A DNA stretch of 64,000 nucleotides from Spirochaetota bacterium (GCA_050298055.1 JBNKTL010000010.1:37977-101976), one strand, 5' to 3'. Positions 22,848 to 64,000 are shown, counted from the first letter of the stretch. The notes: generated from the sequence alone by a model not told the origin. Numbers and translations: made by a program.

Positions 22848-22991
22848 GTAACTACTCAAGCTTAGTATAAGAACAATCACATTCAATAAAAAAAAGATAA
22901 CTGAGATGTCCCCGCCGCCGAAGGCGGCGGGGACATATTGCTGATATTATAGTAAATAAGTTGATTATATCCATAATAGCTGAGTAGTTAC
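22848..22991 (+). mobile_element. MITE copy B (144 bp)
   Basis: TIRs GTAACTACTCA / TGAGTAGTTAC. Central ATGTCCCCGCCGCC-GAA-GGCGGCGGGGACAT. Flanks CATTATTA / CATTATTG. Confidence 0.88.
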
Positions 22992-29144: not shown

Positions 29145-29251
29145 CTAACACCTCAGCTATATGGCTATAATCAGCCGCCCAGGGCAGCGGGGACATATCA
29201 GTTATCTTTTTATTGAAAATGGTTATTCACATACTCAGCTTGAGTCGTTAC
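29145..29251 (-). mobile_element. MITE copy E (107 bp, internally deleted)
   Basis: Ends CTAACACCTCAGC / GCTTGAGTCGTTAC. Perfect 8-bp TSD GAAATAAG, which contains the stop codon of the upstream gene. Confidence 0.85.
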
Positions 29252-41867: not shown

Positions 41868-41948
41868 TATCCCACAACCGGGGGCGGCGGGGACATTTTG
41901 TTGATATTTCCTGTGAATACAATTGTCGCCCTCTCGTTGAGTAGTTAC
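41868..41948 (+). mobile_element. MITE copy F (left end lost)
   Basis: GGGCGGCGGGGACAT hairpin arm and right TIR TGAGTAGTTAC. Confidence 0.65.
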
Positions 41949-51071: not shown

Positions 51072-51211
51072 GCAACTACTCAGTTATATGAAAAATATTA
51101 TTTATTCACTAAAAATATTAACAATATGTCCCCGCCGCCCTGGGCGGCGGGGACATATCAATTATTTTTTCTGTTAAATACGAATACTCTTATACATAGC
51201 TGAGTTATAAC
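51072..51211 (-). mobile_element. MITE copy H (140 bp)
   Basis: Ends GCAACTACTCAG / CTGAGTTATAAC. Perfect TSD AAATAATT. Hairpin ATATGTCCCCGCCGCC-CTG-GGCGGCGGGGACATAT. Confidence 0.88.
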
Positions 51212-51290: not shown

Positions 51291-51430
51291 GTAACTGCTC
51301 AAACTTAGAATAAGAACAATCATATTTATTAAAAACAGAGCTTATATGTCCCCGCCGCCTAAGGCGGCGGGGACACATTGTCGGCATTCTGTTAAATATC
51401 CATATTTCAGCCATACAGCTGAGTAATTAC
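51291..51430 (+). mobile_element. MITE copy I (140 bp)
   Basis: Ends GTAACTGCTCA / TGAGTAATTAC. 9-bp TSD AATATTATT. Hairpin TGTCCCCGCCGCC-TAA-GGCGGCGGGGACA. Confidence 0.88.
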
Positions 51431-52168: not shown

Positions 52169-52468
52169 TTACTGTATATTTCCCACCACACCCTGACCGG
52201 GTTCATTTCGGATTTCACCGAACCTGGATTCGTACTCTCCGAGGTTTTGTTTCAGTGTCTCCAGAAGTCTTTTCGCATGGGCTGGAGTCATCAGTATCCT
52301 TGACACCATTTTACCGAAACCGGGCGGCGGAGACGGATGGATAAAGATGAAATCCATGACGAATTCATCTGCGGAATGACTGATATTCGTAAAATTTGAG
52401 AATCTTCCCACAGCTATGTTTTCATCAATCTTTATCTCTATCTTAATATCTTCCTGTCTCTGTGCCAT
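52169..52468 (-). CDS. DUF3467 domain-containing protein
   Basis: G.FSN..ISHS..EFVMDF..SRILMTPAHAKRL..L..N...YE.RFGEI. Confidence 0.88.
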   Translation of the reverse strand: MAQRQEDIKIEIKIDENIAVGRFSNFTNISHSADEFVMDFIFIHPSPPPGFGKMVSRILMTPAHAKRLLETLKQNLGEYESRFGEIRNEPGQGVVGNIQ

Positions 52469-52670
52469 TTTGTCCTCCGGTTTATCCTGTCATTTTTTAT
52501 CACAGATTATTTGAACAAATCGATTTTGTAAATGAGAATTAATATTCGGGAAATTTTTTTCACTTCATATCAATTCACCGCAAAAAGTTACCGTTAAATA
52601 ATACCATACATAAATTTTCATTGATTGGTTATTTACTATATGTTAAAATGAGCCGGAGAGGATAGTCGTT

Positions 52671-53663
52671 ATGTCGACCATTATAAAAGATATTGTTACT
52701 GTTTTTCTTTTTGCACTGGTTTTCACCACCTGCGGACAGGCGGAAAAAATAAAAAAGGGAAAAGTCACAATTGGCATTCAGGCGTCTTTAATATCAACAC
52801 CAATCATTGTTGCAAAAGCAAAAAACTATTTCAGAGATGAAGGAGTTGATGTAACCATAAAAAAATTCCCCAGCGGCAAAGTTGCCATAAAGAGCATGCT
52901 GAAAAACGAAGTTGATCTTTCCACTTCCGCTGACATTCCCATCATGATAAACAGCTTTTCCAGGAATGATTTCAGCGTTATTTTAACATTTGCATACACT
53001 GACAACGGCGCATGGATCATTGCACGGAGAGACAGGGGAATAAAAAAACCTTCCGGCCTGGAGGGTAAAACAATTGCCACCCAGAAGTCCTCTGCAGTGC
53101 ACTTTTTTCTGAGCCTTTTTCTTCTTCACAACCAGATACCCGAATCGAAGGTAAAGATCAAGTATATGAAAGCGGTGGATCTTCCCGGAACCCTGATAAG
53201 AGGAAATATTGACGCATTCAGTATGAGAAACCCCTTTATCAAAAACGCCCGGGATGCACTGGGACCCAATGCAATAGAGTTTTTTATGCCGGAAATATAC
53301 AGGCAGCGATTTAACCTTCTCGTTATGAAAAAGTATATCAGGAAAAATCCCGAAATAATTAACAGCATCATACGGGCATTATTGAAAACCAGGGATTTCA
53401 TCCTGAGAAAAGAAGAGGATGCAAAGAAGATGGCAGCCGAAGAACTTGGAATAGCCAATGACAGGGGACTTGAAAATGACTGGAAAAACTATGTTTTCAG
53501 AATCTCACTGGACCAGGCCTTTCTTAAGACACTGGAAGACCAGGCACGGTGGGCCATAGGAAAAAAACTAACCAAGAAAAAGACCGTACCGGATTTTTAT
53601 CAATTCATTGATCAAAAGCCATTAATGGCTATTAACCCTGATTTGGTCAGTATAATGAAATAA
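52671..53663 (+). CDS. NrtA/SsuA/CpmA-family substrate-binding lipoprotein
   Basis: Lipobox FTTC, then VAKAKNYF.DEG, LEGKTIAT..S and LEDQARW. Confidence 0.85.
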   Translation: MSTIIKDIVTVFLFALVFTTCGQAEKIKKGKVTIGIQASLISTPIIVAKAKNYFRDEGVDVTIKKFPSGKVAIKSMLKNEVDLSTSADIPIMINSFSRNDFSVILTFAYTDNGAWIIARRDRGIKKPSGLEGKTIATQKSSAVHFFLSLFLLHNQIPESKVKIKYMKAVDLPGTLIRGNIDAFSMRNPFIKNARDALGPNAIEFFMPEIYRQRFNLLVMKKYIRKNPEIINSIIRALLKTRDFILRKEEDAKKMAAEELGIANDRGLENDWKNYVFRISLDQAFLKTLEDQARWAIGKKLTKKKTVPDFYQFIDQKPLMAINPDLVSIMK

Positions 53664-53676
53664 TTTCCAATACCTG

Positions 53677-55998
53677 ATGAATATTAAACAGAAACTCTAT
53701 ATCAATGCTCTGGTCACGACAATTCTGGCAATTATTGTTGTTGTTGCGCTTCTCTATTCATCGAGTAAAACAGAAGACATTTATACGAAAGCCACCATAG
53801 CAGAAAGCGCCCACAGTGCCGTGTCCGAACTGGATATTCTTGCCTATGAATACCTCCTCTACAGAGAACAGCGAATTGAAGAACGATGGACAGACAAATA
53901 TTCGGCAATAAAAAAAATACTCAGGAAGTTTCCCGCATCTGATACTGATTTATTGGATATTATAGAAAGTGATTTTGAATTACTCTGGAAAATATTCAAC
54001 GAAGTGACTGAAAACTACAGGAAGATGCTCAACCTTATTGAAACAGGGGCATCCCGGGAAAAAATAGATCTTATCAAACAGCTTGAAGAAAGGCTTGTGG
54101 GACAGCTCCTTATAAAATCACGATCAATTATTACCAATACTTCACGGATTTCTGAAAAACTGAATCACAGGCATATCCGGTACCATCACCTGACCAACAG
54201 AATAGTAATTTCATTTACTCTACTCTTATCCGTAACAATTATTATTCTCTCCCTGTTCCTGCTCAAAAGCATATCAAGCCCCCTGGAGAAACTGTCATCA
54301 GGTGCGGCAGTCATCGGGAAAGGGGATTTGGATCACAGGGTTGATGTTGTCTCAAATGATGAAATCGGCCGACTGGCCATGGCCTTCAACAGGATGGTTA
54401 AAAACCTGAAAATCGTTACCGCGTCCCGCGATGACCTTAATCTGGAGATCCAGAGCAGAAAGAAACTGCAGGAAGAACTCATCATTGCCATAAAAAATGC
54501 TGAAACGGCAAAAGAGGAAGCAGAATCGGCAAACAGGTTAAAGAGCGACTTCCTGGCAAACCTGAGCCATGAAATACGCACACCTCTGAACGCGGTCATC
54601 GGTTTCAGTGAACTCTTATCGGGCAAGACATCTGATAAAACATGCAGCGGCTATATCCAATCAATCAAAACAGCCGGGAAGACACTGCTCAATCTCATAA
54701 CGGATATCCTCGACCTTTCGAAAATTGAAGCAGGCATTATCGACATTGAATATGATTCAGCTAACATACGGGACATATTCAATCATCTTAAACTGCTCTT
54801 TCAAATAAGATTTTCTGAGAAAAACCTGGATTTTATCATTGAAATTGACGAAGACCTTCCCGCAACTGTCATGATCGATGAAGCAAGACTGACACAGGTT
54901 CTTATCAATATCATAAGCAACTCCCTAAAATTTACGGATAAAGGTTATGTGAAGCTCTCTGCATTTGAAGAAAAAGAAAATGACTCGGATGAGTTCATAA
55001 GGCTGATAATCAGAATAGAGGATACCGGGATTGGCATTCCGGAAGAAGAACATGAACTGATCTTTGAAAGCTTTAAACAACAGTCAGACCAGGATACCGG
55101 CGACTATGGGGGTACGGGCCTTGGTCTTGCTATCAGCAAAAAACTGATTGAGATGATGAATGGTAAAATCAGCGTAAAAAGCAGAAAAGGGAAAGGAAGT
55201 ACATTTGATATTGAATTAAATGATGTGGAATTACTTAGTGAAAATGAGAAAATTAAAAGTGATTCATCCATTGATTATACACAAATAAAATTTGCCGGGA
55301 AAAAAGCCCTTGTTGTGGATGATAATGATTCCAACAAAAATCTCATAGTCGAACTCCTTGTAAACGCGGGAATGGAAGTGGAGACTGCAAATAACGGGAA
55401 AGAAGCGCTGGATAAAATCAGGAAATTTCAACCTGAACTTGTCCTTCTCGACATAAAGATGCCGGTAATGAATGGTTTCGAAACCATTATCAAAATCCGG
55501 AACAATCCCGATATTTCATACCTGCCTGTCATTGCGCTTACCGCTTCAGCAACAAATGAAAGCAGGAAAGAAATAAAGGATGCCGGATTTAACGATTACC
55601 TTTTCAAACCTGTAAATATCCTGAAATTATTCAGGAAAATATCCAATCACCTGGATTACCAGATCGAGGATATTGCGGACGCAGAAGATGACCTGGAAGA
55701 TTATTTAGATGAAAAGGGAATCTCTGAAAGCATTGCCGAAAACGGGGAACTGGTTCATGAACTTATAACCGGGACATTGCCCGGTATTGCAAACCAGAAA
55801 CATGCATTGAAAATAAAAGACGCACAGAGAATTTCCGAACAGTTAATCAATACGGGAGAAAAATACGGCAACACGACCGTCAGAAATCTTGGCAAAAAAC
55901 TGCTTTACTCTACAGAAGGTTATGACATCAGGAAGATAAGGAAGTTCTTAGGTATGCTGGAATCCGTACTTAATAAACTCAATGAAACCGGAGATTAA
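53677..55998 (+). CDS. Hybrid sensor histidine kinase (TM-HAMP-HisKA-HATPase-REC)
   Basis: DEIG.LA.AFN, FLANLSHEIRTPLN, DTGIG, GGTGLGL, and a receiver domain (VVDD..LLDIKMP..KP). Confidence 0.94.
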   Translation: MNIKQKLYINALVTTILAIIVVVALLYSSSKTEDIYTKATIAESAHSAVSELDILAYEYLLYREQRIEERWTDKYSAIKKILRKFPASDTDLLDIIESDFELLWKIFNEVTENYRKMLNLIETGASREKIDLIKQLEERLVGQLLIKSRSIITNTSRISEKLNHRHIRYHHLTNRIVISFTLLLSVTIIILSLFLLKSISSPLEKLSSGAAVIGKGDLDHRVDVVSNDEIGRLAMAFNRMVKNLKIVTASRDDLNLEIQSRKKLQEELIIAIKNAETAKEEAESANRLKSDFLANLSHEIRTPLNAVIGFSELLSGKTSDKTCSGYIQSIKTAGKTLLNLITDILDLSKIEAGIIDIEYDSANIRDIFNHLKLLFQIRFSEKNLDFIIEIDEDLPATVMIDEARLTQVLINIISNSLKFTDKGYVKLSAFEEKENDSDEFIRLIIRIEDTGIGIPEEEHELIFESFKQQSDQDTGDYGGTGLGLAISKKLIEMMNGKISVKSRKGKGSTFDIELNDVELLSENEKIKSDSSIDYTQIKFAGKKALVVDDNDSNKNLIVELLVNAGMEVETANNGKEALDKIRKFQPELVLLDIKMPVMNGFETIIKIRNNPDISYLPVIALTASATNESRKEIKDAGFNDYLFKPVNILKLFRKISNHLDYQIEDIADAEDDLEDYLDEKGISESIAENGELVHELITGTLPGIANQKHALKIKDAQRISEQLINTGEKYGNTTVRNLGKKLLYSTEGYDIRKIRKFLGMLESVLNKLNETGD

Positions 55999-56001
55999 TA
56001 C

Positions 56002-56586
56002 ATGAAAGACCTGAAGGCATTTTTACTTATTGTTGATGACAACCCGGTAAACATCCAGGTACTGGGAAACATGCTGGAGGATTCCGGTTACAGGACCGCG
56101 GCCACTCTCAATGGAAACGATGCTCTTAAATTCATCCAGGATGAGAAACCCGATCTTGTCCTCCTGGATATCATGATGCCGGAAATCGACGGTTACCAGG
56201 TATGCAAAATACTCAAAGAAGATGATGATCTGAAGGACATTCCGGTTATTTTTCTCACGGCAAAAAATGATACAGAGAGTATCGTCAGGGGATTTGAAGT
56301 CGGAGGTGTGGATTATATTTCGAAGCCGTACCATTCCGCGGAACTTCTTGCCAGGATCAAAACTCATCTGGAACTCAAGCACGCCAGAGAGGAAATTGTA
56401 TCATTGAGGGGGATCATTCCCATCTGTGCCAGCTGTAAAAAGATCCGGGATGATGAAGGCTTCTGGGCAAGTGTGGAAACATACCTGGAGACCCGCACCG
56501 ATGCCCGGTTTAGTCACGGGATATGCCCCGACTGTGAAAAAAAACTTTATGGAGATAAAGACTGGTTTAAGAATATGAAAAAATAA
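56002..56586 (+). CDS. Response regulator with C-terminal Cys/His-rich motif
   Basis: IVDDN..LLDIMMP..SKP, with C-terminal PICASCKKIRDD..SHGICPDC. Confidence 0.92.
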   Translation: MKDLKAFLLIVDDNPVNIQVLGNMLEDSGYRTAATLNGNDALKFIQDEKPDLVLLDIMMPEIDGYQVCKILKEDDDLKDIPVIFLTAKNDTESIVRGFEVGGVDYISKPYHSAELLARIKTHLELKHAREEIVSLRGIIPICASCKKIRDDEGFWASVETYLETRTDARFSHGICPDCEKKLYGDKDWFKNMKK

Positions 56587-56823
56587 AGACTCATCCGGCG
56601 GATTAAATTATTTATTGACACCATTCTCCCCTACTATAGATCATTATTTGATATCAGTTTTATCACTTGAAATTGCAAATCTGCCGCTGAAAGTTGGTTG
56701 AGTGTTAAATGTCGGATTGAAGAAAAGAGATTTAATACGAAACGTACGAAATTCACAAAGACCAGGAAAGAAGAGTGTAAGATAAGGAGATCGGGGGAAT
56801 ATAGAGGAGATGTGGGGATAAGA

Positions 56824-58749
56824 ATGACAGCAGACAAACTTAAATCAACCCTTCGTAAAATAATCGAAGGATCAGAGTATTTAGAGTCAATAAAATCCCT
56901 CAAAAACAGCGAAGGAAAGAGCAGGATATTCGGCAGCAGCGTCCGGGCACTTGATAAAGGGGAAATTGTCCGGCTGGAAGAGAACGGGAACAGGTGTGAA
57001 AACTGGAATGATATCATGGTCACGGAGGGTTTCACCACAGACTTTATCCATGATAATATCTTTACGGGTAAGTGCATACTGGGAGAATACCGGGGGGTTG
57101 TCATGGATACCGGCGACTCGGTGAGCATGAAATCGGGAATATACAGGTGCTGCATTGCCCATTCCGAAATTGGAGATAATTGCCTGTTATACGACAATGG
57201 TATTATTTCCCGCTATCTTATTCTCCATTCCGCCGTGGTCTTCAGGACCAACACGCTCTCTGCCTCCGGAGAGTGCAGCTTTGGCAACGGATACGGCCTC
57301 CGTGTGGGACCGGAAACCGGCGGACGGGAGGTACTTTCATTCGCGGAACTGACTCTCCCTGTTGCCGAAACAATCGCGTTAAACAGAGACAACCGGGAAC
57401 TTCTGGAAATTTACACTGAATTCATCACGGAATATACTGAAGCCGCCCGTGCCGATTTCGGGATCGTGGATTCCGGCGCGCTGATCAGGGGCGCAAACAG
57501 GATATATAATACATATATCGGAAGCCACGCCAGGATAAACGGAGCAGCGGGCATTGACAATACAAGTATCCTCTCATCAGAGGATGAACCCACGGAAGTA
57601 ACAGGGGGCTCGCTGGTCAACAACTCATCTCTCCAGTGGAACTCAGCGGTTTCATCAATGGCACTGGTGGAAAACTCCGTTCTCTGCGAGCACTCACATG
57701 CCGAAAGGCACGCGAAGCTTTCCCACACCATACTCGGCCCCAATTCCGGCATTGCGGAGGGAGAGGCTACTTCATGCCTCATCGGTCCGTTTGTGGGTTT
57801 TCACCACCAGTCCATGCTGATCGCGGCCCTCTGGCCCGAGGGCAGGGGAAATGTCGGTAACGGCGCCAACATCGGTTCCAACCATACATCCCGTGCTCCC
57901 GACCAGGAGTTCTTCTGCGGTGAAGGAGTGTTCTTTGGCCTGGGTGTAAACATCAAGTACCCTTCGGATTTCAGGAACTCTCCCTATTCGATTATCGCAA
58001 CCGGTGTTGACACGCTTCCCCAGAAGCTGGACTTTCCCTTCTCCCTGGTAAACAAACCGGGCCGGGTTTATGACGCCATTCCCGCCGCTCATAATGAGAT
58101 CTTCCCCGGCTGGGCCTTTTCTCATAATCTCTACGCGGTCATGCGGAATGAAAACAAGTTCAGAGAGAGAAACAGGGCCGCGAGATCGGACATCCCTCTG
58201 AAGATTTTTCGTCAGGAGATAATTGAAAAGGTCATTGATGCCAGGAAACGGCTCAGCCGGGCAGAAACAGGGGAGAATATCTATACCGAAATGGAGATCC
58301 CCGGGCTGGGTAAAAACTTTGCCACTGCTCACAGCTGTGTGAAAGGGATACAGGCATACAATATGATAATCGATTATTATCTCCTCATACAGCTTGCAGA
58401 AATACCGGATGAATTATCCGCTAAAGGCAGATTAAAAAAATTTGAAGATCTCATCTCAATGAAAACAGGGAACAGTGAATGGGAATACGCGAAGAGCATT
58501 ATTGCCGGGAGTGAAGACTTCAGCGGCAACCTCCCGGAGAGGCTCAGGAAACTTCCGGATGTCCTGGACCACCTGGTCGAGGGAGTTCTCAGTTCAAAAA
58601 AAAGGGACGATGCAAGGGGAATGAAAATCATCCATGACTACGGAACGGTAAACCGGCCCGCCGAAGAGGACAGCTTCATCATTTCATTTACAGAGAGAAT
58701 GGGAAAAATGAAGGAAAATGTCTCGGGACTGATAAAGAAACTCTCATAG
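56824..58749 (+). CDS. DUF4954 family protein (left-handed beta-helix-like)
   Basis: LEENGN.C.NW, GPFVGFHHQSMLIA.LWPEGRGN, GANIGSNH and PFSL. The ATG at 56824 is preferred over the TTG at 56698. Confidence 0.75.
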   Translation: MTADKLKSTLRKIIEGSEYLESIKSLKNSEGKSRIFGSSVRALDKGEIVRLEENGNRCENWNDIMVTEGFTTDFIHDNIFTGKCILGEYRGVVMDTGDSVSMKSGIYRCCIAHSEIGDNCLLYDNGIISRYLILHSAVVFRTNTLSASGECSFGNGYGLRVGPETGGREVLSFAELTLPVAETIALNRDNRELLEIYTEFITEYTEAARADFGIVDSGALIRGANRIYNTYIGSHARINGAAGIDNTSILSSEDEPTEVTGGSLVNNSSLQWNSAVSSMALVENSVLCEHSHAERHAKLSHTILGPNSGIAEGEATSCLIGPFVGFHHQSMLIAALWPEGRGNVGNGANIGSNHTSRAPDQEFFCGEGVFFGLGVNIKYPSDFRNSPYSIIATGVDTLPQKLDFPFSLVNKPGRVYDAIPAAHNEIFPGWAFSHNLYAVMRNENKFRERNRAARSDIPLKIFRQEIIEKVIDARKRLSRAETGENIYTEMEIPGLGKNFATAHSCVKGIQAYNMIIDYYLLIQLAEIPDELSAKGRLKKFEDLISMKTGNSEWEYAKSIIAGSEDFSGNLPERLRKLPDVLDHLVEGVLSSKKRDDARGMKIIHDYGTVNRPAEEDSFIISFTERMGKMKENVSGLIKKLS

Positions 58750-58751
58750 GA

Positions 58752-59912
58752 TCAGAACTCAATATTGATCTCATTCACCTTCCGGATAATACCGCTGAAT
58801 ATTTTCCTGCAGCTTTTACTGATTGTGAGTTTTTCGAGATTTTCAGCCGATTCTTCAATGAACTTCCCGTGAAGGGCAAGAGAAGCTTCCAGCCCCCCCG
58901 ACTCAACAATCATTTTGCGGATAGAGTTCACCTGGGCCTTTTTCTTCTTCCGCTCAGTGATAAGGGACCTGAATATCTTTTTCCCTTCACCTCCCAGTTT
59001 CTCTATGGTCTTCTGGACAAGTATTGTCATTTTGCCTTCGAGGATATCCGAGTCATTGGGCTTACCCGTTTCCTCCACTTTCCCGAAAACACCGATAATA
59101 TCATCCCGTATCTGGAAAGCAGATCCCAGGGGAAGGGCAAACTTCCTGATATTTTCCTTCTCCCCGCTGTCATCCCTGCCGGTGAGAATATATCCCATGA
59201 GCAGGGGATAATAAAAAGTGTAGTATGCCGTCTTCATGCTGATTATCTGCATGGGGACATCCTGGCTGAAATCCGCCTTCCGGGGAAGAGAGTGGAGCGT
59301 ATCGAGGATCTGGCCCCATGCTGTCATTTCATAGGTCATTGAGAAGACCCGGAGAAACTTCTTCCTCACTGCCGGCTTCATATCCGACTCGTTGATAATC
59401 TCAAGAGCATTGGACATGATCACGTCAGCCAGGACGATGGCAATATCGCTCCCGATACTTTCGTTATAGGTGTAACCGGAATAATTTTCATCCGCGGCAA
59501 TATGCAGGGCCTTCCCTCCCCTCCTGATATCCGACTCATCAATAATATCATCCTGTATCAGGAGAAAGGAGTGCATCATCTCAACGGCAGACGCGAGCCT
59601 GATAAGAGGCGAATAGTCCCCGGTCCTGCCCTTATAACCGGAATACGCGGACAGGAGGACCATGGGCCTGATCCTCTTCCCTTCACGGGTGCAGTACTCT
59701 TTCAGCATTTTATACATATCCGCAATAAACCCGATGCCGGATTTTTTTATTTTTTTCCGGTAATAGTCCATTATGAACTTATCAACTTCGGGGATAAAAA
59801 TGCCGCTGAACTCCTCAAATGAAGCAGGAATTTCTTTTAACCTGAATTCTTTCATACTGTAAAATTTATTAAGTAAAATATTATGATTCTCAGGAGAGGT
59901 TAAAAGTGTCAA
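58752..59912 (-). CDS. Polyprenyl synthetase family protein
   Basis: GKRIRP, LIQDDIIDESDIRRG, GQILD, KTA.Y and FQIRDD..SDILEGK. The true start may be the Met at about 59854. Confidence 0.92.
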   Translation of the reverse strand: MTLLTSPENHNILLNKFYSMKEFRLKEIPASFEEFSGIFIPEVDKFIMDYYRKKIKKSGIGFIADMYKMLKEYCTREGKRIRPMVLLSAYSGYKGRTGDYSPLIRLASAVEMMHSFLLIQDDIIDESDIRRGGKALHIAADENYSGYTYNESIGSDIAIVLADVIMSNALEIINESDMKPAVRKKFLRVFSMTYEMTAWGQILDTLHSLPRKADFSQDVPMQIISMKTAYYTFYYPLLMGYILTGRDDSGEKENIRKFALPLGSAFQIRDDIIGVFGKVEETGKPNDSDILEGKMTILVQKTIEKLGGEGKKIFRSLITERKKKKAQVNSIRKMIVESGGLEASLALHGKFIEESAENLEKLTISKSCRKIFSGIIRKVNEINIEF

Positions 59913-59995
59913 TGAATTATTTTTTGCTCTTTAATTATGCAGTAGTGAATTTAAAAAGGCAGCCTGACTTTTGTTGTACTCGACTTTCTTATTTT

Positions 59996-60571
59996 TTATT
60001 CTTTTTTAAACGCATGAACAAGAGGGTACATTCCCCACTCCCCGTATTTTTTCCGAAGCTTCTGTGATGTAACAATAAAATTGTCCGCAATCTCATACAG
60101 GCCCCACTGAATATGATATATCTTTTTTCTGGAATATCCCGTATAGTCGCCGATATAGACAGCATTCCCTTTTCTGACTTCAAAGGTATCAAGAAAATGC
60201 TTTAAATTTTCCGGAGGGTAAACACCAAGGTATCGGTATGACAATCTTGTCTCTGTGTTGAACAATCCTGAAATCCTGTACATCCCGGGATTGACTTCAA
60301 TTGCAAAAACCGGATCAGATCCAAAAAAAAGAAAATAATCCCTTGAGAACTCTATATGAAGCTTCTTGCCGCTCCCGAGCTCTTCGAGAACAAGCCCAAT
60401 ATCCGATTTATACACGCTTTTCTGATAAAAGCTGCCGAAGATATATGACTTATTGGCATCCGGTCTTGAGCTTTTACTTATTTTACTGGCCATCCCGGGA
60501 GTGGCGCAATTGTTGAATACAACCGTTAATGTAAGAATGGAAAATATTGATACGAATTTTAATAATTTCAT
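59996..60571 (-). CDS. Putative lipoprotein (paralogue of 61743-62276)
   Basis: Signal peptide ending FNNC. PGMYRI..F.V..G..VYIG pattern. Confidence 0.75.
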   Translation of the reverse strand: MKLLKFVSIFSILTLTVVFNNCATPGMASKISKSSRPDANKSYIFGSFYQKSVYKSDIGLVLEELGSGKKLHIEFSRDYFLFFGSDPVFAIEVNPGMYRISGLFNTETRLSYRYLGVYPPENLKHFLDTFEVRKGNAVYIGDYTGYSRKKIYHIQWGLYEIADNFIVTSQKLRKKYGEWGMYPLVHAFKKE

Positions 60572-60712
60572 TTTATTTTTCTATCCCAAAATATAATTAA
60601 TAAAAAAATAAGCTAATTTAAATTGTGTTTTTAAAATCCCTCTGCGTTATAAAATAACATTGACTTACACTTACCATGCGACAAGTGATTTGTCAATTCT
60701 AAATCTTCCAGA

Positions 60713-60934
60713 TTCCCGGCAGACTTTCTCATCATTATCGCAGGAGAGTTGTTTGAAATTCTCAGTAAACCGGAACCGGCCTCATCCCCAAAGCCCCTTC
60801 AGAAACCAGGGCCTTGAGAAAACTTCCGTACCACCGGAACCTCACCTGCTCAGCCTGGTCAGGAAAACAAACAGGCCGGGGACCCGGCCTGTTTGTGACC
60901 ATTGCGTCTCTATAGATAATATGCTGAGTGAATT
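60713..60934. repeat. Cassette-associated repeat unit, copy 3 (diverged)
   Basis: CCGGAAC..CATCC..AAAG..CCAGGGC..AACTT..CCGGAACCT, then palindrome ACAAACAGGCCGGG-GA-CCCGGCCTGTTTGT (60867-60896), then TGACCATTGC..TATAGA..TGCTG..TGAATT. Colinear with copies 1 and 2. Confidence 0.65.
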
Positions 60935-60979
60935 TTTGTCCTGCGAGTATGCAATTGAATACGCATTTAAAAAACGCCA

Positions 60980-61288
60980 TTAAGGACAAGTATAATCCGA
61001 AGGATAATATAAGTTATCATCATTATCTATTTCACATGTTACAGTATAACCCAGCGATTCACATGTTTCATCACTATAAAAATACATTTTTGTACTATTG
61101 TTATTAGTAGTACAAGCATTTTCTCCAACATGGAAACAGAGAGCTGGATATTGAAGTATATCATTTGTATAGTGCTCCAATACACAAGCTCCATCCGGGT
61201 CTTCTTCATAACCAAAACACCCTGACATGAGAAAACTTAAAATCAACACCAGTGCAATAACCGGCAATCTTCTAGATATTAGTTTCAT
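60980..61288 (-). CDS. Small Cys-rich lipoprotein
   Basis: Lipobox LMSGC, six further Cys and an acidic composition. Confidence 0.75.
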   Translation of the reverse strand: MKLISRRLPVIALVLILSFLMSGCFGYEEDPDGACVLEHYTNDILQYPALCFHVGENACTTNNNSTKMYFYSDETCESLGYTVTCEIDNDDNLYYPSDYTCP

Positions 61289-61456
61289 CTTTCATCCCCT
61301 TACATATATAAAAATTTAAATTAAATAAACCTACCTGCCATTAACCAGGTAGAATTCAATACTAAACAATTATTTCAACTATTAAGAAAACCACACACAC
61401 CTGAATCGATGCCCCCACGCAAAAAACCAACACTCACTCAAAAACCCACTCCCCGC

Positions 61457-61744
61457 ACCGCTGCTTCGCATAATTGACGGCAAGCGTTCGCTTCGCACAT
61501 TGCCGCCTTCTTCACTGATAAAAAACTTTTCCCGGCAGGGCGGCAACGTCGCTTACCTCTGCAATTATGCGAAACGCTCAACACACAGTTTCCTTCACCG
61601 GTCCAAAACAAGCCCCATCCATAAACCCCTTTCTGCGGCAAGGGCAGGGAGGGAACTTTGCTCTGTATGTCCCGAAACCTGAAAATATCAGAATTCTGAT
61701 ATTTTCATGAACATTGCTTCTATATAGAAAGTGCTGTATGAATT
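61457..61744. repeat. Cassette-associated repeat unit, copy 1, including an attC-like hairpin (61465-61573) and a 28-bp palindrome (61680-61707)
   Basis: Paired arms TTCGCATAATTG / CAATTATGCGAA, GGCAAGCG / CGCTTACC and ACATTGCCGCC / GGCGGCAACGT. Palindrome TGAAAATATCAGAATTCTGATATTTTCA. Confidence 0.85.
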
Positions 61745-62276
61745 ATTTTTTCGCCTCTATTTTTTTCATTTGAATCGTTTCAATTTTAATATCATTTAGT
61801 GCTGTATATTTCTGTAATAAAAGTTTTTTATCGGCTTCATAAAGATTTTTAACTTTAGAAGAAAATCTAGCCGGAATAGAACTATGGGAAAACTGAAAAA
61901 AACCAATATAAGAAGCTGTACTTTCATTGATACTGAATTCTACATTTGTATACTTTACAAAGTCTTCTGTTTCGATTAACGCGCTTAAACTATTAAGCTG
62001 ATAATCCCCTGCAGGTAATTTAAAAATAAAGACACCTTTTTCTTTTTCCGGCATTTCTAATCTTAATTTTATTTTTTTCCCATCAGACTTTCGCTGTACA
62101 AACAACATAACAAAAGGATCGCCAATTAATTTTGTATAATCTCTTGAATAGGTTCCACATAAAAACCCATTTTTATCTTTTTTAATTTCTGTATTCTTTA
62201 ATACTCCTCTTGGCAACTCACACCCTGAAATACTTGCTATTATTAAAAGTGCAAACAGTAAATTTGTTTTTTTCAT
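61743..62276 (-). CDS. Putative lipoprotein (paralogue of 59996-60571)
   Basis: Lipobox ISGC, AAGGAG RBS and PAGDYQL..F.I....SYIG pattern. Confidence 0.78.
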   Translation of the reverse strand: MKKTNLLFALLIIASISGCELPRGVLKNTEIKKDKNGFLCGTYSRDYTKLIGDPFVMLFVQRKSDGKKIKLRLEMPEKEKGVFIFKLPAGDYQLNSLSALIETEDFVKYTNVEFSINESTASYIGFFQFSHSSIPARFSSKVKNLYEADKKLLLQKYTALNDIKIETIQMKKIEAKK

Positions 62277-62360
62277 CTATTTTAATCTCCTTATGGTTTT
62301 TAATATTTAATCGTCTGTAGAATTTTTGCAGATCAATTTTATGCTTTTTAAACTCTCCCC

Positions 62361-62617
62361 ACCGCTTCGCACATTGCCGCCTTCTTCACTGATTAAAAAC
62401 TTTTCCCGGCAGGGCGGCAACGTCGCTTGCCTCAGCAATTATGCGAAACGCTCAACTCACGGCTTCCCTCACCGGACCGGAACAAACGCCATCCATAAAG
62501 ACCTTTCCGCGGCCAGGGCAGGGAGGGAACTTTGCTCCTCCATGCGCCGGGGGACTTTTTGTCCTGACTTTCCCGGAACCTGAATTCAGCAGATATCTGC
62601 TATTTTCATGAACATTG
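62361..62617. repeat. Cassette-associated repeat unit, copy 2 (left hairpin arm deleted)
   Basis: Near-identical to 61489-61716 over most of its length. Palindrome variant TGAATTCAGCAGATATCTGCTATTTTCA at 62581-62608. Confidence 0.88.
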
Positions 62618-62644
62618 TTTTTTACTCTTTCCATCAACAACAAA

Positions 62645-62917
62645 TCAGTTCTTCTCTTCCTCTACGTTCTTCGGAAGCTTGATCTTTCCGTGGTTCTCTT
62701 CGAAAAGGTTGATATTGTCCACAAGGAGCTTTGCCAGCTCCTTTGCGAAAACAGGACTCATACGAAGATTGACTGCAGGCTTAACTCCCTGGTAGTTACT
62801 GCTGCCGAGGCCAAGGGTGATCTCGAATTCATACGGACTTGTGTTTACCGTGGCCGTATTGCTGTATACTTCAGGGATTTGAATGCTAATGTTTTTATTG
62901 TTTTTGCTATTTGACAT
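62645..62917 (-). CDS. DUF3467-like small protein
   Basis: EVYSN.ATV..SPYEF.I.LG..V.LRMSP.FAK.L..LL..N...FE..HG.I, the same pattern as 52169-52468. Confidence 0.75.
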   Translation of the reverse strand: MSNSKNNKNISIQIPEVYSNTATVNTSPYEFEITLGLGSSNYQGVKPAVNLRMSPVFAKELAKLLVDNINLFEENHGKIKLPKNVEEEKN

Positions 62918-63071
62918 GATTTCCTTTTTTCACAATTTACTTATTTTATCATTATTATTTTCTTCATTTTTTTAAATGAATAGAATACAATTGTTATTAT
63001 TTACAAATTACGATTCAAAACAACACCTAATATAATAAGTCCCAATATCTATCATCATAGTTAATGAAAAT

Positions 63072-63683
63072 TTAAAATATCAACTCAAATATCTTACCAT
63101 ACTTAAAACCTACCATTCCAAGAGAAACGTCATTAAGTTCATTAAAACATACCTCATTATTATACTCATTCTTAAAATCTTCAGATACGATACATTTAAT
63201 CTTTCTATCAATACCAATTTTACTCAAAGCCTCACAATATTTAATATTGCTACCTAAAATCATATGTTTGAATCTATTACTAGAACCCCAATTCCCAATA
63301 ATTACTTCACCTTTATGTAAGGCATTAGTAAATTCAATTTTACTTAAATTTAATTTTAAAATACTACTTATAATTTTTTTTACAGATTGTATTGATTTTT
63401 CAATTTCTTGAAAATATACAAGAGTTGTGTTAAATCCAAAATCAACAATTGAACCCATATTTTCTTTATCAGTAAAATCATAAACAATATTAAATATATC
63501 TATTAATGTTTTCATTTGTTCTTCAGGTTTAACTGGTTCTGTAAAATTAATTACCCATTTATTTATTATTAAATCTTTATTCTCACCAAATAGACCAAAA
63601 TAAACATCTTCATTATTATCAACAGATTTCGATATTTCTTTCCCACAATATAATTCCAATATTTTTTTGTATTTGTGTTCCAT
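63072..63683 (-). CDS. Degenerate class III nucleotide cyclase-like domain protein
   Basis: LHKGEVIIGNWGS..R....ILGSNI and CIVSE match the cyclase fold, but catalytic residues appear to be missing. AT-rich. Confidence 0.6.
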   Translation of the reverse strand: MEHKYKKILELYCGKEISKSVDNNEDVYFGLFGENKDLIINKWVINFTEPVKPEEQMKTLIDIFNIVYDFTDKENMGSIVDFGFNTTLVYFQEIEKSIQSVKKIISSILKLNLSKIEFTNALHKGEVIIGNWGSSNRFKHMILGSNIKYCEALSKIGIDRKIKCIVSEDFKNEYNNEVCFNELNDVSLGMVGFKYGKIFELIF

Positions 63684-63695
63684 AGATACCTCTTA

Positions 63696-63998
63696 TTATT
63701 TCTCCTCTACAATTACTTTACCGTCTTTATAACGCCATCTTTTAATTTTAGTTGCATCTAGCATAATATTATTACTTGAATCAGTATCTAATGGTATTAC
63801 TTCACCATGAGTTTCAATATATATATCACCATAATTCAACCCCATCTTCCTTGCAATATCATCAAATACTTTCCAATCATCATCGTTTGAATTTTCGCTA
63901 GTAAATATATTATTAAGCAAATCCAAATCATCATCTATAGTATATCCTGGTAATCCAAAATAATCATCTATCGATTGATACCCCGGTGTGCCCTGTAT
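63696..63998 (-). CDS. C-terminal part of a hypothetical protein (5'-truncated by window edge)
   Basis: Frame is open to the window end (IQGTPGYQSIDDYFGLPGYTIDDDLDLLNN...). Ends 12 bp before the next gene, whose GAGG RBS lies in the gap. Confidence 0.65.
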   Translation of the reverse strand: MQGTPGYQSIDDYFGLPGYTIDDDLDLLNNIFTSENSNDDDWKVFDDIARKMGLNYGDIYIETHGEVIPLDTDSSNNIMLDATKIKRWRYKDGKVIVEEK

Positions 63999-64000
63999 AT

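What the first reader, a model, noticed from the sequence alone, without database searches (positions are those of the whole stretch)
61465..61573. Non-canonical attC-like hairpin with AAT/ATT in place of AAC/GTT
Seen: a 109-bp imperfect hairpin. The outer arms TTCGCATAATTG / CAATTATGCGAA pair perfectly over 12 bp, followed by unequal spacers, a second box GGCAAGCG / CGCTT(A/G)CC, a bulged CGCTTCGC, and an inner stem ACATTGCCGCC / GGCGGCAACGT. Established: attC sites have R'' RYYYAAC and R' GTTRRRY boxes, L boxes and extrahelical bases. Here the boxes read GCATAAT / ATTATGC, a compensatory change, and copy 2 also has ATTATGC (62438-62444). Inference: a variant attC for a recombinase of altered specificity, or a decayed attC. 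The neighbouring genes appear to be antisense to the presumed top strand, which would be unusual, though the strand assignment is uncertain.
Basis: partly seen in the sequence, partly recalled or inferred. Interest (0 to 1): 0.7.

Follow-up and report, generated by a model that had tools for sequence, protein, structure and literature searches.

The report
Folded cassette-boundary site, not integron attC
The 109-base hairpin is real and belongs to a conserved, strand-specific family of folded sites that close toxin and immunity gene cassettes in a group of spirochaetes; it is not a site of the classical integron enzyme and is likely a docking site for Xer-like recombinases found beside such cassettes.

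Summary
Window 61465-61573 folds as described (ssDNA z -3.8 on the + strand, -5.0 on the - strand).

The hairpin is one module of a roughly 250-base mosaic intergenic repeat between small, low-GC lipoprotein genes on the minus strand.

It is not a decayed one-off. A covariance model built only from other genomes scores it at 102.6 bits. The family occurs in 27 of 122 genomes of the order and in 0 of 134 sampled genomes of other orders of the phylum. On the alignment, 24 of 31 base pairs show compensatory changes. G.T outnumbers A.C 107 to 18 on the gene-sense strand.

It is not an IntI attC.
- The same genome has an integron with seven attC sites that all keep AAC/GTT.
- Models of the two site types do not cross-match.
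- Only 1 of the 27 hairpin-bearing genomes has intI.

Copies sit just after immunity, lipoprotein or toxin-antitoxin genes and form co-oriented rows in CdiA and Rhs toxin loci. Five copies lie 247-924 bases behind Xer-like recombinase genes.

Best reading (about 0.45): a folded single-strand recombination site that works like attC for another recombinase. Rivals are a 3' RNA structure and a selfish palindrome.

The parts
61458..61578 (-). Full hairpin element as matched by the covariance models.
   Evidence: R1 scores 127 bits (this copy was in its seed). R2, built without any sequence of this genome, scores 102.6 bits, E 2.3e-18. ssDNA fold z is -4.97 on this strand.
61465..61476 (.). Outer stem P1, arm on the low-coordinate side; pairs with 61562-61573. 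This is the sequence-conserved part of the family.
   Evidence: In one search (helix 1) the four pairs at alignment columns 14-17, just short of the loop-closing pair, are near-invariant, while the outer ones covary.
61562..61573 (.). Outer stem P1, arm on the high-coordinate side.
61479..61486 (.). Second stem P2 (8 bp); pairs with 61550-61557. Its sequence is free and its length is kept.
   Evidence: helix 2: 95.6% of cells paired; 7 of 8 pairs have changes on both sides.
61550..61557 (.). Second stem P2, other arm. It is flanked by the asymmetric internal loop: 61558-61561 opposite 61477-61478.
61487..61496 (.). Conserved unpaired bulge of 10 nt, on the 3' side of the fold when read on the minus strand.
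   Evidence: Its sequence is kept across genera in one subfamily; a second subfamily has another conserved bulge.
61497..61549 (.). Inner stem P3 (61497-61507 with 61539-61549) and the variable 31-nt loop (61508-61538).
   Evidence: helix 3: 8 of 11 pairs have compensatory change, and a G.U is kept at one pair in 23 of 38 distinct sequences. Loop length and sequence vary.
61412..61720 (-). Mosaic intergenic repeat, copy 1. It holds a C-rich module (61412-61464), the hairpin, a second module (61574-61663), and a small palindrome module ending about 25 nt after the stop of the upstream gene.
   Evidence: Metagenome contigs diverge at about 61412 and about 62560 (table 7).
62341..62620 (-). Mosaic repeat, copy 2, with a truncated hairpin. 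It lacks one P1 arm and one P2 arm. Contig C74:725-982 has the same truncated form.
   Evidence: R2 gives only 29.8 bits, a partial match.
60774..60932 (-). Third, hairpin-less relative of the repeat, including a terminator-like GC hairpin.
   Evidence: 76% identity to C156:307-464. In C156 the two flanking modules are joined directly, without the hairpin.
61743..62276 (-). 177-aa predicted lipoprotein gene (GC 0.28) that the hairpin follows by 164 nt; a likely orphan immunity-type cassette gene.
   Evidence: No Pfam family. Its function is inferred from context only.
60980..61288 (-). 102-aa predicted lipoprotein gene (GC 0.33), the next cassette downstream of the hairpin.
   Evidence: No Pfam family.
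62645..62917 (-). 90-aa DUF3467 gene followed by repeat copy 2.
   Evidence: Pfam PF11950, 40.7 bits. A homologous gene in G004 is followed by an intact hairpin 60 nt after its stop.
59996..60571 (-). 191-aa predicted lipoprotein gene, the last small co-oriented gene of the row.
   Evidence: No Pfam family.
63072..64000 (-). Two further low-GC co-oriented ORFs (203 aa, and at least 100 aa running off the contig end). The window end is the contig end.
   Evidence: No Pfam family.

Best explanation
The hairpin is a member of a conserved, strand-specific family of roughly 120-nt folded elements that close toxin, immunity and toxin-antitoxin cassettes in Leptospirales-type spirochaetes. It likely serves as a folded single-strand DNA recombination (att) site for Xer-like tyrosine recombinases. 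In that reading it works like an integron attC without belonging to that family.

Shown:
- the fold;
- its conservation by covariation across at least four families of one order;
- the preference for the gene-sense strand;
- its position a few dozen bases after small co-oriented genes;
- co-oriented rows in CdiA-type and Rhs-type polymorphic toxin loci;
- independence from IntI;
- physical linkage to a module of a primase-like gene and two Xer-like recombinase genes. That module also occurs twice in this genome, next to toxin-immunity pairs.

Inferred:
- One recombinase would bind the sequence-conserved outer stem. The second would bind the sequence-free 8-bp stem, helped by the asymmetric internal loop and the conserved 10-nt bulge.
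- One strand would be exchanged, as at attC or at the folded attP of phage CTX (recalled).
- Repeated events would add [toxin tip + immunity gene + site] units downstream of a resident toxin gene.

In this genome the intact copy is embedded in a lineage-specific 250-nt mosaic repeat. Several copies are truncated or lack the hairpin, so the local row may be partly decayed.
For: Fold and family.
- Fold.
- R2, built from 28 sequences of other genomes, scores the window copy at 102.6 bits.
- The family is found in 22 of 122 genomes of the order with R1 and in 27 of 122 with R2.
- Covariation on 38 distinct sequences: 89.3% of cells paired; 24 of 31 pairs with compensatory change; 168 double-change cells against 50.4 +/- 6.2 in shuffles and 27-45 in the slid controls.
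- Strand: 107 G.T against 18 A.C cells.

Layout. It is like a recombinase core site folded from one strand: a conserved outer stem, a 4/2-nt internal loop, an 8-bp stem of free sequence, a conserved bulge and a variable top.

Context.
- In 18 of 24 loci that have an upstream ORF, that ORF is co-oriented. In 16 of those 18 the gap is 6-164 nt.
- G119 has 10 copies in two loci, 6 on one strand and 4 on one strand. The loci encode TpsB, a 2303-aa TpsA/CdiA-like protein and orphan modules: AHH with Imm11, and barnase with barstar.
- Among the G119 copies, homology starts sharply at the foot of the hairpin, while the immunity genes upstream are all different.

Recombinase link.
- The site lies 247-924 nt behind a Xer-like recombinase gene, and antisense to it, at 5 places in 4 genomes: G099 twice, G037, G017 and G001.
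- In G099 a 7009-bp tandem unit has a sense copy after each immunity gene. I predicted the copy at C88:14536-14623 from the period, and the search then found it.
- Close recombinase homologues occur in 7 of 122 genomes, and 5 of those 7 bear the hairpin. Fisher p = 0.006, but kin are not independent.
- G000 contigs C72 and C78 each carry toxin, immunity, HTH, a primase-like 768/775-aa gene and Xer-like genes.

Copy number. The hairpin region has 36 to 70 times the depth of its flanks in contigs of run X1. It is also present with other flanks in a run of another study.
Against: No recombination product was seen. Contigs cannot show rare junctions, and the one cassette-sized skip had only 27 bases on one side at depth 3.9.

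Of the 27 hairpin-bearing genomes, 22 have no close homologue of the linked recombinase at E <= 1e-55. Among them is G119, which has 10 copies in a 3-contig assembly.

Two recombinase-bearing genomes (G084, G109) and 3 of 7 spirochaete recombinase loci show no hairpin.

The sense orientation after genes and the G.U-type wobbles fit an RNA element equally well.

In G119 and G099 the hairpin's variable parts go with the downstream conserved block. Ordinary homologous recombination between conserved flanks could therefore explain the cassette swapping.

In this genome's own recombinase modules (C72, C78), the place after the immunity gene is held by a different hairpin family.

The strand-asymmetry and covariation counts were made on alignments fitted to the model.
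Confidence: 0.45

Rival explanations
1. It is an RNA element of the cassette transcripts: a 3'-UTR structure that ends, processes or stabilises the mRNA of the immunity gene and insulates it from the next, silent cassette.
For: The folding strand is the sense strand of the upstream gene in 18 of 24 loci, mostly 6-164 nt after the stop. G.U-type wobbles outnumber A.C by 107 to 18. Covariation is of the kind seen in structured RNAs. Seventeen of 27 downstream ORFs are convergent, so the element often sits at a transcript end.
Against: The printed 3' flanks show no T run directly after the stem, so it is not a canonical intrinsic terminator. No Rfam family matches, even at E up to 10. Five copies lie antisense to both flanking genes, next to recombinase genes. 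A conserved primary sequence in the outer stem and the bulge suggests a protein partner. Copy number in metagenomes is very high. No RNA run holds the stretch, so expression could not be examined.
Confidence: 0.25
2. It is a selfish palindromic repeat (MITE-like or REP-like) that inserts into intergenic DNA, or a relic of one, with no role for the cassettes.
For: In this genome the same flanking modules occur with the hairpin (copy 1, C95) and without it (C156, window 60774-60932), as if a discrete unit had been inserted or lost. Depth in metagenome contigs is high and the flanks are many. Truncated copies exist.
Against: No target-site duplication shows at the filled against the empty junction (by eye). 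In the most complete assemblies the copies are not dispersed: all 10 in G119 lie in two toxin loci, and G011 has 1 to 2. Orientation is tied to the upstream gene. Stems covary across families of the order, which argues for long-term selection on the fold.
Confidence: 0.15
3. It is a priming or single-strand origin signal for the primase-like protein of the linked element.
For: The linked modules encode a DnaG/Toprim primase in G001 (Pfam) or a 750-786-aa protein whose nearest Atlas clusters carry Toprim and primase-associated families (a lead only). Copies in inverted orientation flank the module in G099.
Against: Rows of co-oriented copies occur in toxin loci that have no primase gene (G119). 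The site is placed at each cassette end rather than once per element.
Confidence: 0.07
4. It is a variant attC used by the integron integrase of this genome.
For: The genome has an intI: TIGR02249 at 387 bits against a cut-off of 265. The hairpin has two stems, a spacer and unpaired bases in an attC-like order.
Against: AAC/GTT is invariant in 7 of 7 attC sites beside that intI and absent at the matching place of the hairpin. The home-made attC model finds nothing spanning the hairpin; its best hit in 58000-64000 is 10 bits, E 0.75. The hairpin model gives at most 13.3 bits on the integron contig, and only 8.7 and 7.7 bits over two of its attC sites. Only 1 of 27 hairpin-bearing genomes has intI, and family f5 has intI in 6 of 7 genomes and the hairpin in 0 of 7. 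The intI here carries an in-frame TGA.
Confidence: 0.03

Closest known systems
Integron attC sites with IntI (sedentary chromosomal integrons)
   Same: Both are imperfect hairpins read from one strand. Both have a sequence-conserved outer box, an unpaired spacer, a second box kept by structure rather than sequence, unpaired bases and a variable top. Both sit at the 3' end of mostly co-oriented small cassettes, in rows, with toxin-antitoxin genes among the cargo.
   Different: There is no AAC/GTT. The outer stem is 12-17 bp instead of 7. A 10-12-nt bulge replaces single flipped-out bases. The folding strand is the coding strand. There is no link to intI (1 of 27 genomes). Linked recombinases score 91.7-118.8 bits on the integron-integrase model against a cut-off of 265.
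rAID-1 recombinase-associated immunity arrays of Bacteroidales (Ross et al. 2019, bioRxiv 10.1101/471110, passages read; PMC12247911, passages read) and polyimmunity loci next to XerC/D genes (Zhang et al. 2012, PMC3482391, passages read)
   Same: Both have a Xer-family tyrosine recombinase upstream of co-oriented, low-GC small genes tied to interbacterial toxins, with repetitive intergenic sequences that the authors call reminiscent of integrons.
   Different: This is another phylum. Here there are two recombinase genes plus a primase-like gene. Toxin tips are present as well as immunity genes. The repeat is shown here to be a covarying, strand-specific fold. In the passages I read, those papers report sequence motifs only; their supplementary figure with the motifs could not be seen. 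Homology of the recombinases to the rAID-1 enzyme was not tested.
Folded attP(+) of phage CTX recombined by XerCD (recalled from the literature; no paper read here)
   Same: A single DNA strand folds into a forked hairpin that mimics a Xer core site with a mismatched centre, so one pair of strands is exchanged. The enzymes are of the Xer family.
   Different: That site copies the host dif arms. No likeness to a dif site was tested here. CTX is a phage, not a cassette row.
Neisseria intergenic mosaic elements with dRS3 repeats, and Correia elements (recalled)
   Same: Both are mosaic, modular intergenic repeats that gather around silent cassettes of surface and toxin genes. Their hairpins are transcribed with neighbouring genes.
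   Different: There is no sequence relation. Those repeats are short inverted repeats or MITEs with target duplications, and they lack the three-stem architecture and covariation seen here.
REP/REPIN elements with RAYT transposases
   Same: Both are extragenic palindromes, often after genes, and multi-copy.
   Different: REPs are about 35 nt, dispersed genome-wide and linked to HUH enzymes. This element is about 120 nt, clustered in toxin loci and linked to tyrosine recombinases.

Membership tests
Integron attC | R''/R' boxes with the conserved AAC ... GTT triplets next to the spacer | tested here: not met
   The three pairs next to the internal loop (window 61474-61476 with 61562-61564) are not AAC/GTT. 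All 7 attC sites of this genome's integron keep them as invariant columns; all 7 sequences pair there.
Integron attC | Bulged hairpin: two paired boxes, an unpaired central spacer, extrahelical bases and a variable terminal structure | tested here: inconclusive
   The same order of parts is present. The proportions differ: outer stem 12-17 bp, internal loop 4/2 nt, and a 10-12-nt bulge instead of single flipped-out bases.
Integron attC | Match to an attC covariance model | tested here: not met
   R3 was built from the 7 attC sites of contig C43. With filters off, its best hit in window 58000-64000 is 10 bits, E 0.75, and none spans the hairpin. R3 is weak: it re-found only 4 of its 7 seeds in the genome scan. 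The published IntegronFinder model was not on hand.
Integron attC | Occurs with an integron integrase | tested here: not met
   intI is found in 8 of 122 genomes of the order and the hairpin in 27 of 122. Only G000 has both. Family f5 has intI in 6 of 7 genomes and the hairpin in 0 of 7.
Integron attC | Co-oriented rows at the 3' ends of cassettes | tested here: met
   G119 has 6 copies on one strand within 37 kb and 4 on one strand within 10 kb. G111 has 3 on one strand within 4 kb. The upstream ORF is co-oriented in 18 of 24 loci.
rAID-1-like recombinase-associated arrays | Xer-family tyrosine recombinase gene upstream of co-directional small genes | tested here: met
   Seen in G099:C88, G111:C11 and C16, locus L066 and G000:C72/C78. 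The best NCBIfam matches are XerC/XerD models, below their cut-offs. In the window itself no recombinase gene is present; the contig ends at 64000.
rAID-1-like recombinase-associated arrays | Low-GC cargo genes and repetitive intergenic sequence | tested here: met
   Cargo ORFs have GC 0.24-0.39, against 0.52-0.54 for the repeat regions and 0.40-0.49 for the ORFs at 52169-59912. The repeats are shown.
rAID-1-like recombinase-associated arrays | Recombinase at least 44% identical to the B. fragilis rAID-1 enzyme (the criterion in the paper's methods) | not tested
MITE / REP-type selfish repeat | Terminal inverted repeats with a target-site duplication, and dispersal over the genome | tested here: not met
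   The outer stem could pass for inverted ends. No duplication shows at the filled against the empty junction (by eye). Copies are clustered in toxin loci in the 3-contig assembly G119.
Any Rfam RNA family | Score at or near a family's gathering threshold | tested here: not met
   There are 0 matches at gathering scores over the whole window. In 61300-62700 at E up to 10 there are only chance-level hits, the best at 22 bits against a threshold of 80, and none lies on the hairpin's stems 61465-61573.
Xer core site (dif-like) in folded form | Two arms resembling the host dif site around a 6-8-bp centre | not tested
   The dif site of this lineage was not identified.

The most novel reading that the evidence does not exclude
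Spirochaetes of this order run a second kind of gene-cassette system that does not depend on IntI. A pair of Xer-like recombinases, carried with a primase-like gene, uses a 120-nt folded single-strand site to stack toxin-tip and immunity cassettes behind CdiA and Rhs genes. This would give polymorphic toxin loci and rAID-like immunity arrays a defined, testable recombination site.
Probability: 0.35. Interest if true: 0.85.

Novelty: new variant of a known kind. Interest (0 to 1): 0.62.

Why it matters
How orphan toxin and immunity cassettes are collected and swapped is an open point. Homologous recombination at the conserved toxin core is the usual answer. Xer-like recombinases next to immunity arrays have been noted since 2012, and integron-like repeats since 2019, but the passages of those papers read here define no site.

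This work defines a concrete candidate site by structure, strand, boundaries and a searchable model, and it names candidate enzymes beside it. The question can now be put to a standard single-strand recombination assay.

It also shows that attC-like architecture can arise outside the IntI system. Integron finders tuned to AAC/GTT would miss such arrays.

Tried and rejected
Rfam. Nothing matched.

Earlier notes of this scan. Nothing was noted near the place or by sequence.

BLAST of the repeat in 40 relatives. Only two weak hits came back, so covariance models were needed.

Pattern scan of the public collections. A scan with a degenerate motif of the site was planned. One motif script ran, but my spacing was wrong and recall was poor. 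The element's range outside the 122 + 134 genomes searched is therefore unknown.

Model building.

Sequencing runs. No RNA holder was listed, so nothing can be said on expression. Only contigs were available. Laying them showed copy number and diverse flanks but no reliable joint.

Relatives of the linked recombinase in other phyla. None of the 73 loci outside Spirochaetota had the hairpin. They may have sites of their own, which I did not study.

Larger structure. A stem between the two flanking modules around the hairpin has weak support (z -1.9) and was dropped.

DUF3467 gene plus hairpin as a unit shared with G004. Only part of the gene aligns, at 69%, so this is no evidence of recent cassette transfer.

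Literature. Searches for a described hairpin or site in polymorphic toxin cassettes and for integrons in Leptospira relatives returned nothing on this element, as far as the listings showed.

Full report
**1. The observation**

- The 12-bp outer stem pairs 61465-61476 with 61562-61573.
- An asymmetric internal loop has 2 nt opposite 4 nt.
- The 8-bp second stem pairs 61479-61486 with 61550-61557.
- A 10-nt stretch, 61487-61496, is unpaired.
- The 11-bp inner stem pairs 61497-61507 with 61539-61549, and the loop is 31 nt.

Folded as ssDNA, the + strand has z -3.82 and the - strand z -4.97. In both cases 0 of 200 shuffles folded as well. The two mismatches seen on the + strand are A.C or C.A, so they become G.T on the - strand. 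The - strand is also the coding strand of all the small neighbouring genes.

It lacks the left outer arm and the left second box, a 27-base gap, and it does not fold better than chance.

**2. Local setting**

The hairpin is one module of a mosaic repeat. Copy 1 spans about 61412-61720 and copy 2 about 62341-62620. The two are 91% alike over 175 nt.

The window ends at the end of contig C10. Further whole or partial copies lie on small contigs or at contig ends: C74, C95, C91, C156 and C78. In C156, and at window 60774-60932, the flanking modules occur without the hairpin.

The genes between the repeats are small, co-oriented and of low GC (0.24-0.39). Several have lipoprotein-type signal peptides. 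One is a DUF3467 protein and the rest have no Pfam family.

In contigs of public run X1, the hairpin region has a summed depth of 308-700 against about 10 for the flanks. A run of another study holds the hairpin with quite different flanks. These depths sum all organisms in the sample, so they show a high-copy repeat in such communities, not a copy number for this genome.

**3. It is a conserved family**

BLAST found hairpin-only matches in two other genera, with a compensatory change in the second stem.

A covariance model of three sequences (R1) found the element in 22 of 122 genomes of the order. It found none in the 134 sampled genomes from other orders of the phylum.

A second model, R2, was built from 28 matches, none from this genome or from the other two seeds. 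It scores the window copy at 102.6 bits, E 2.3e-18, and finds the family in 27 of 122 genomes. Record titles returned place carriers in Spirochaetota, one of them labelled Leptospirales.

Covariation on 38 distinct sequences:
- 89.3% of cells pair.
- 24 of 31 pairs show changes on both sides.
- There are 168 double-change cells, against 50.4 +/- 6.2 in shuffles and 27-45 when partners are slid.
- The second stem is 95.6% paired, with 7 of 8 pairs compensatory.

G.T cells outnumber A.C cells 107 to 18 on the modelled strand, so one particular strand folds. These counts come from a model-fitted alignment and lean towards the structure. The slid controls argue that the signal is real.

The parts conserved in sequence are the four outer-stem pairs just short of the loop-closing pair, the ends of the second stem, and the bulge. 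The bulge has two subfamily versions.

**4. It is not an IntI attC**

The genome does have an integron. An intI on contig C43 scores 387 bits against a cut-off of 265 and has one in-frame TGA. It is followed by seven cassettes whose attC sites all keep AAC and GTT.

The hairpin model, run with filters off, gives only noise on that contig: at most 13.3 bits anywhere, and 8.7 and 7.7 bits over two of the attC sites. A model made from the seven attC sites gives only noise in window 58000-64000: the best hit is 10 bits, E 0.75, and none spans the hairpin. That home-made model is weak; it re-found only 4 of its 7 seeds in the genome scan.

Across the order, intI occurs in 8 of 122 genomes, 6 of them in family f5. 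Family f5 has no hairpin in 7 genomes, and only G000 has both features.

**5. What it sits next to**

I examined 29 loci with my own simple ORF caller.
- 24 have an ORF upstream of the element.
- In 18 of those 24 the ORF is co-oriented with the folding strand.
- In 16 of those 18 the gap is 6-164 nt.
- The six with the opposite orientation include the two G099 copies discussed in section 6 and several short ORFs that may not be genes.

The upstream genes are signal-peptide or lipoprotein genes, HicA toxins, an ankyrin lipoprotein and DUF3467. Toxin-antitoxin genes are common neighbours.

In G119, a 3-contig assembly, all 10 copies lie in two loci. These loci encode a TpsB transporter, a 2303-aa TPS/haemagglutinin-repeat protein and a train of orphan toxin plus immunity modules: AHH nuclease with Imm11, and barnase-like with barstar. 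Each copy follows an immunity gene. Homology among the copies begins sharply at the foot of the hairpin and runs on into the conserved start of the next orphan toxin, whereas the immunity genes upstream are all different.

**6. Link to recombinases**

At five places in four genomes the element lies 247-924 nt behind a tyrosine recombinase gene and antisense to it. These are G099:C88 twice, G037:C78, G017:C307 and G001:C69.

The enzymes match XerC/XerD models best but fall below their cut-offs. They score 91.7-118.8 bits on the integron-integrase model, whose cut-off is 265. They come as a pair behind a 750-786-aa gene whose nearest Atlas clusters carry Toprim and primase-linked families (a lead only). 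In G001 the gene is a clear DnaG/Toprim primase.

In G099 the unit is: HTH, primase-like gene, two recombinases, antisense hairpin, Rhs tip, immunity gene, sense hairpin. It is repeated in tandem with a period of 7009 bp. Its backbone is 99.4% identical between the repeats and the toxin tip and immunity genes differ. I predicted a sense copy at C88:14536-14623 from that period, and the R2 search then found it.

In G111:C11 the order is recombinase, HicAB, 304-aa ORF, 247-aa lipoprotein, sense hairpin.

Close homologues of the recombinase occur in 7 of 122 genomes, and 5 of those 7 carry the hairpin. Fisher p is 0.006, which overstates the case because kin are not independent.

This genome has the same module twice, on C72 and C78. 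On C72 it follows a toxin of at least 1865 aa with its immunity gene. On C78 it follows a 370-aa ORF with a 318-aa signal-peptide ORF. On C72 the second recombinase gene is cut by the contig end. On C74 a protein of at least 3188 aa and a 161-aa low-GC gene are followed by the truncated repeat.

**7. Reading**

The layout, the strand specificity, the position at cassette ends, the rows and the recombinase linkage together fit a folded single-strand recombination site that works like attC for a Xer-like enzyme pair. I put this at about 0.45.

The points against it are real.
- No junction product was seen.
- 22 of the 27 carrier genomes lack a close homologue of the linked recombinase, including G119 with its 10 copies.
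- Some recombinase loci lack the hairpin.
- The hairpin's variable parts go with the downstream conserved block, so plain homologous recombination between conserved flanks could do the swapping.
- In this genome's own recombinase modules, the equivalent place holds another hairpin family.

An RNA role at the 3' end of cassette transcripts (0.25) fits the sense orientation and the wobble pairs. It does not fit the antisense copies beside the recombinase genes, and the element has no T tract. A selfish palindrome (0.15) fits the hairpin-less frameworks and the high copy number, but not the clustering, the orientation rule or the long-term covariation. A primase signal (0.07) and an IntI site (0.03) are minor.

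**8. Comparison with what is known**

The nearest described things fall into two groups.

From papers read here:
- Integron attC sites: the same logic, but the defining features are not met.
- The rAID-1 arrays of Bacteroidales, which have a XerD-family recombinase, low-GC orphan immunity genes and intergenic repeats "reminiscent of integrons" (10.1101/471110, passages read; PMC12247911, passages read).
- The remark that polyimmunity loci often lie next to XerC/D genes (PMC3482391, passages read).

From recall only, with no paper read:
- The folded attP of phage CTX used by XerCD.
- The mosaic intergenic repeats of Neisseria.

The listings of my searches showed no description of a folded site at toxin-cassette boundaries. 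The supplementary motif figure of the rAID paper could not be seen and may bear on this.

An earlier AI note on another piece of this genome (e1-8274189) reports an integron-like array with a recombinase that lacks the IntI insertion. It points the same way, but I did not check whether it concerns the same modules, and it is not independent support.

**9. Verdict**

The attC label fails. The idea of a site for another recombinase is the best-supported but unproven mechanism. I rate it a new variant of a known kind.

Noticed in passing
G000 contig C43:957-8601 (locus L143), outside the window: A canonical integron in a Leptospirales-type spirochaete assembly. The intI scores 387 bits against a cut-off of 265, has one in-frame TGA, and is followed by seven cassettes with AAC/GTT attC sites of 60-125 nt. 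A 2013 paper's abstract (PMC3607928, seen in the listing) says Treponema was then the only spirochaete clade known to carry integrons. intI is found in 8 of 122 genomes of this order, 6 of them in one family.
   Followed up: partly
loci L057:2416-2662 and 2065-2333; L058:1718-1994 and 2107-2400; L034; L060:5928-6100: Two further inverted-repeat structures that share a repeated short motif. One lies directly behind the second recombinase gene, and it is present even where the studied hairpin is absent, as in G111. The other lies beyond the antisense hairpin. They may be the recombinases' own binding sites or a terminator.
   Followed up: no
G000 C72:6511-6646 and C78:3292-3427 (L144, L147): A different G-rich hairpin of about 105 nt, 90% alike between the two contigs. 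It occupies the place after the immunity gene and before the recombinase module, where G099 has the studied hairpin. It folds better on the gene-sense strand: z -2.5 and -3.5, against -1.2 on the other strand.
   Followed up: partly
window 22907-22938, 29171-29217, 41871-41917, 51131-51177, 51351-51397: A separate family of GC-rich perfect palindromes with AT-rich flanks (families D1/D3, pairs I3-I10).
   Followed up: no
loci L070-L142: Relatives of the linked recombinase (32-41% identity) are multi-copy in some Desulfobacterota assemblies: more than ten loci in one Desulfofustis assembly and several in Desulfospira chromosomes. This suggests a wider family of mobile elements built on this enzyme. 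None of these loci holds the spirochaete hairpin.
   Followed up: no
window 52169-52468 (-) and 62645-62917 (-): There may be two DUF3467-like genes in the window. The second sits in the cassette row and has a homologue in G004 that is also followed by the hairpin. Only the second was scanned against Pfam.
   Followed up: partly
window 61400 to 62460, run X2 (table 5): One low-depth contig (depth 3.9, 27 bases on the shorter side) joins 61400 to 62460 with 39 other letters between them. It skips the 177-aa gene with both repeat copies. This may be a cassette-sized variant in a related strain, but the evidence is too weak to count.
   Followed up: no
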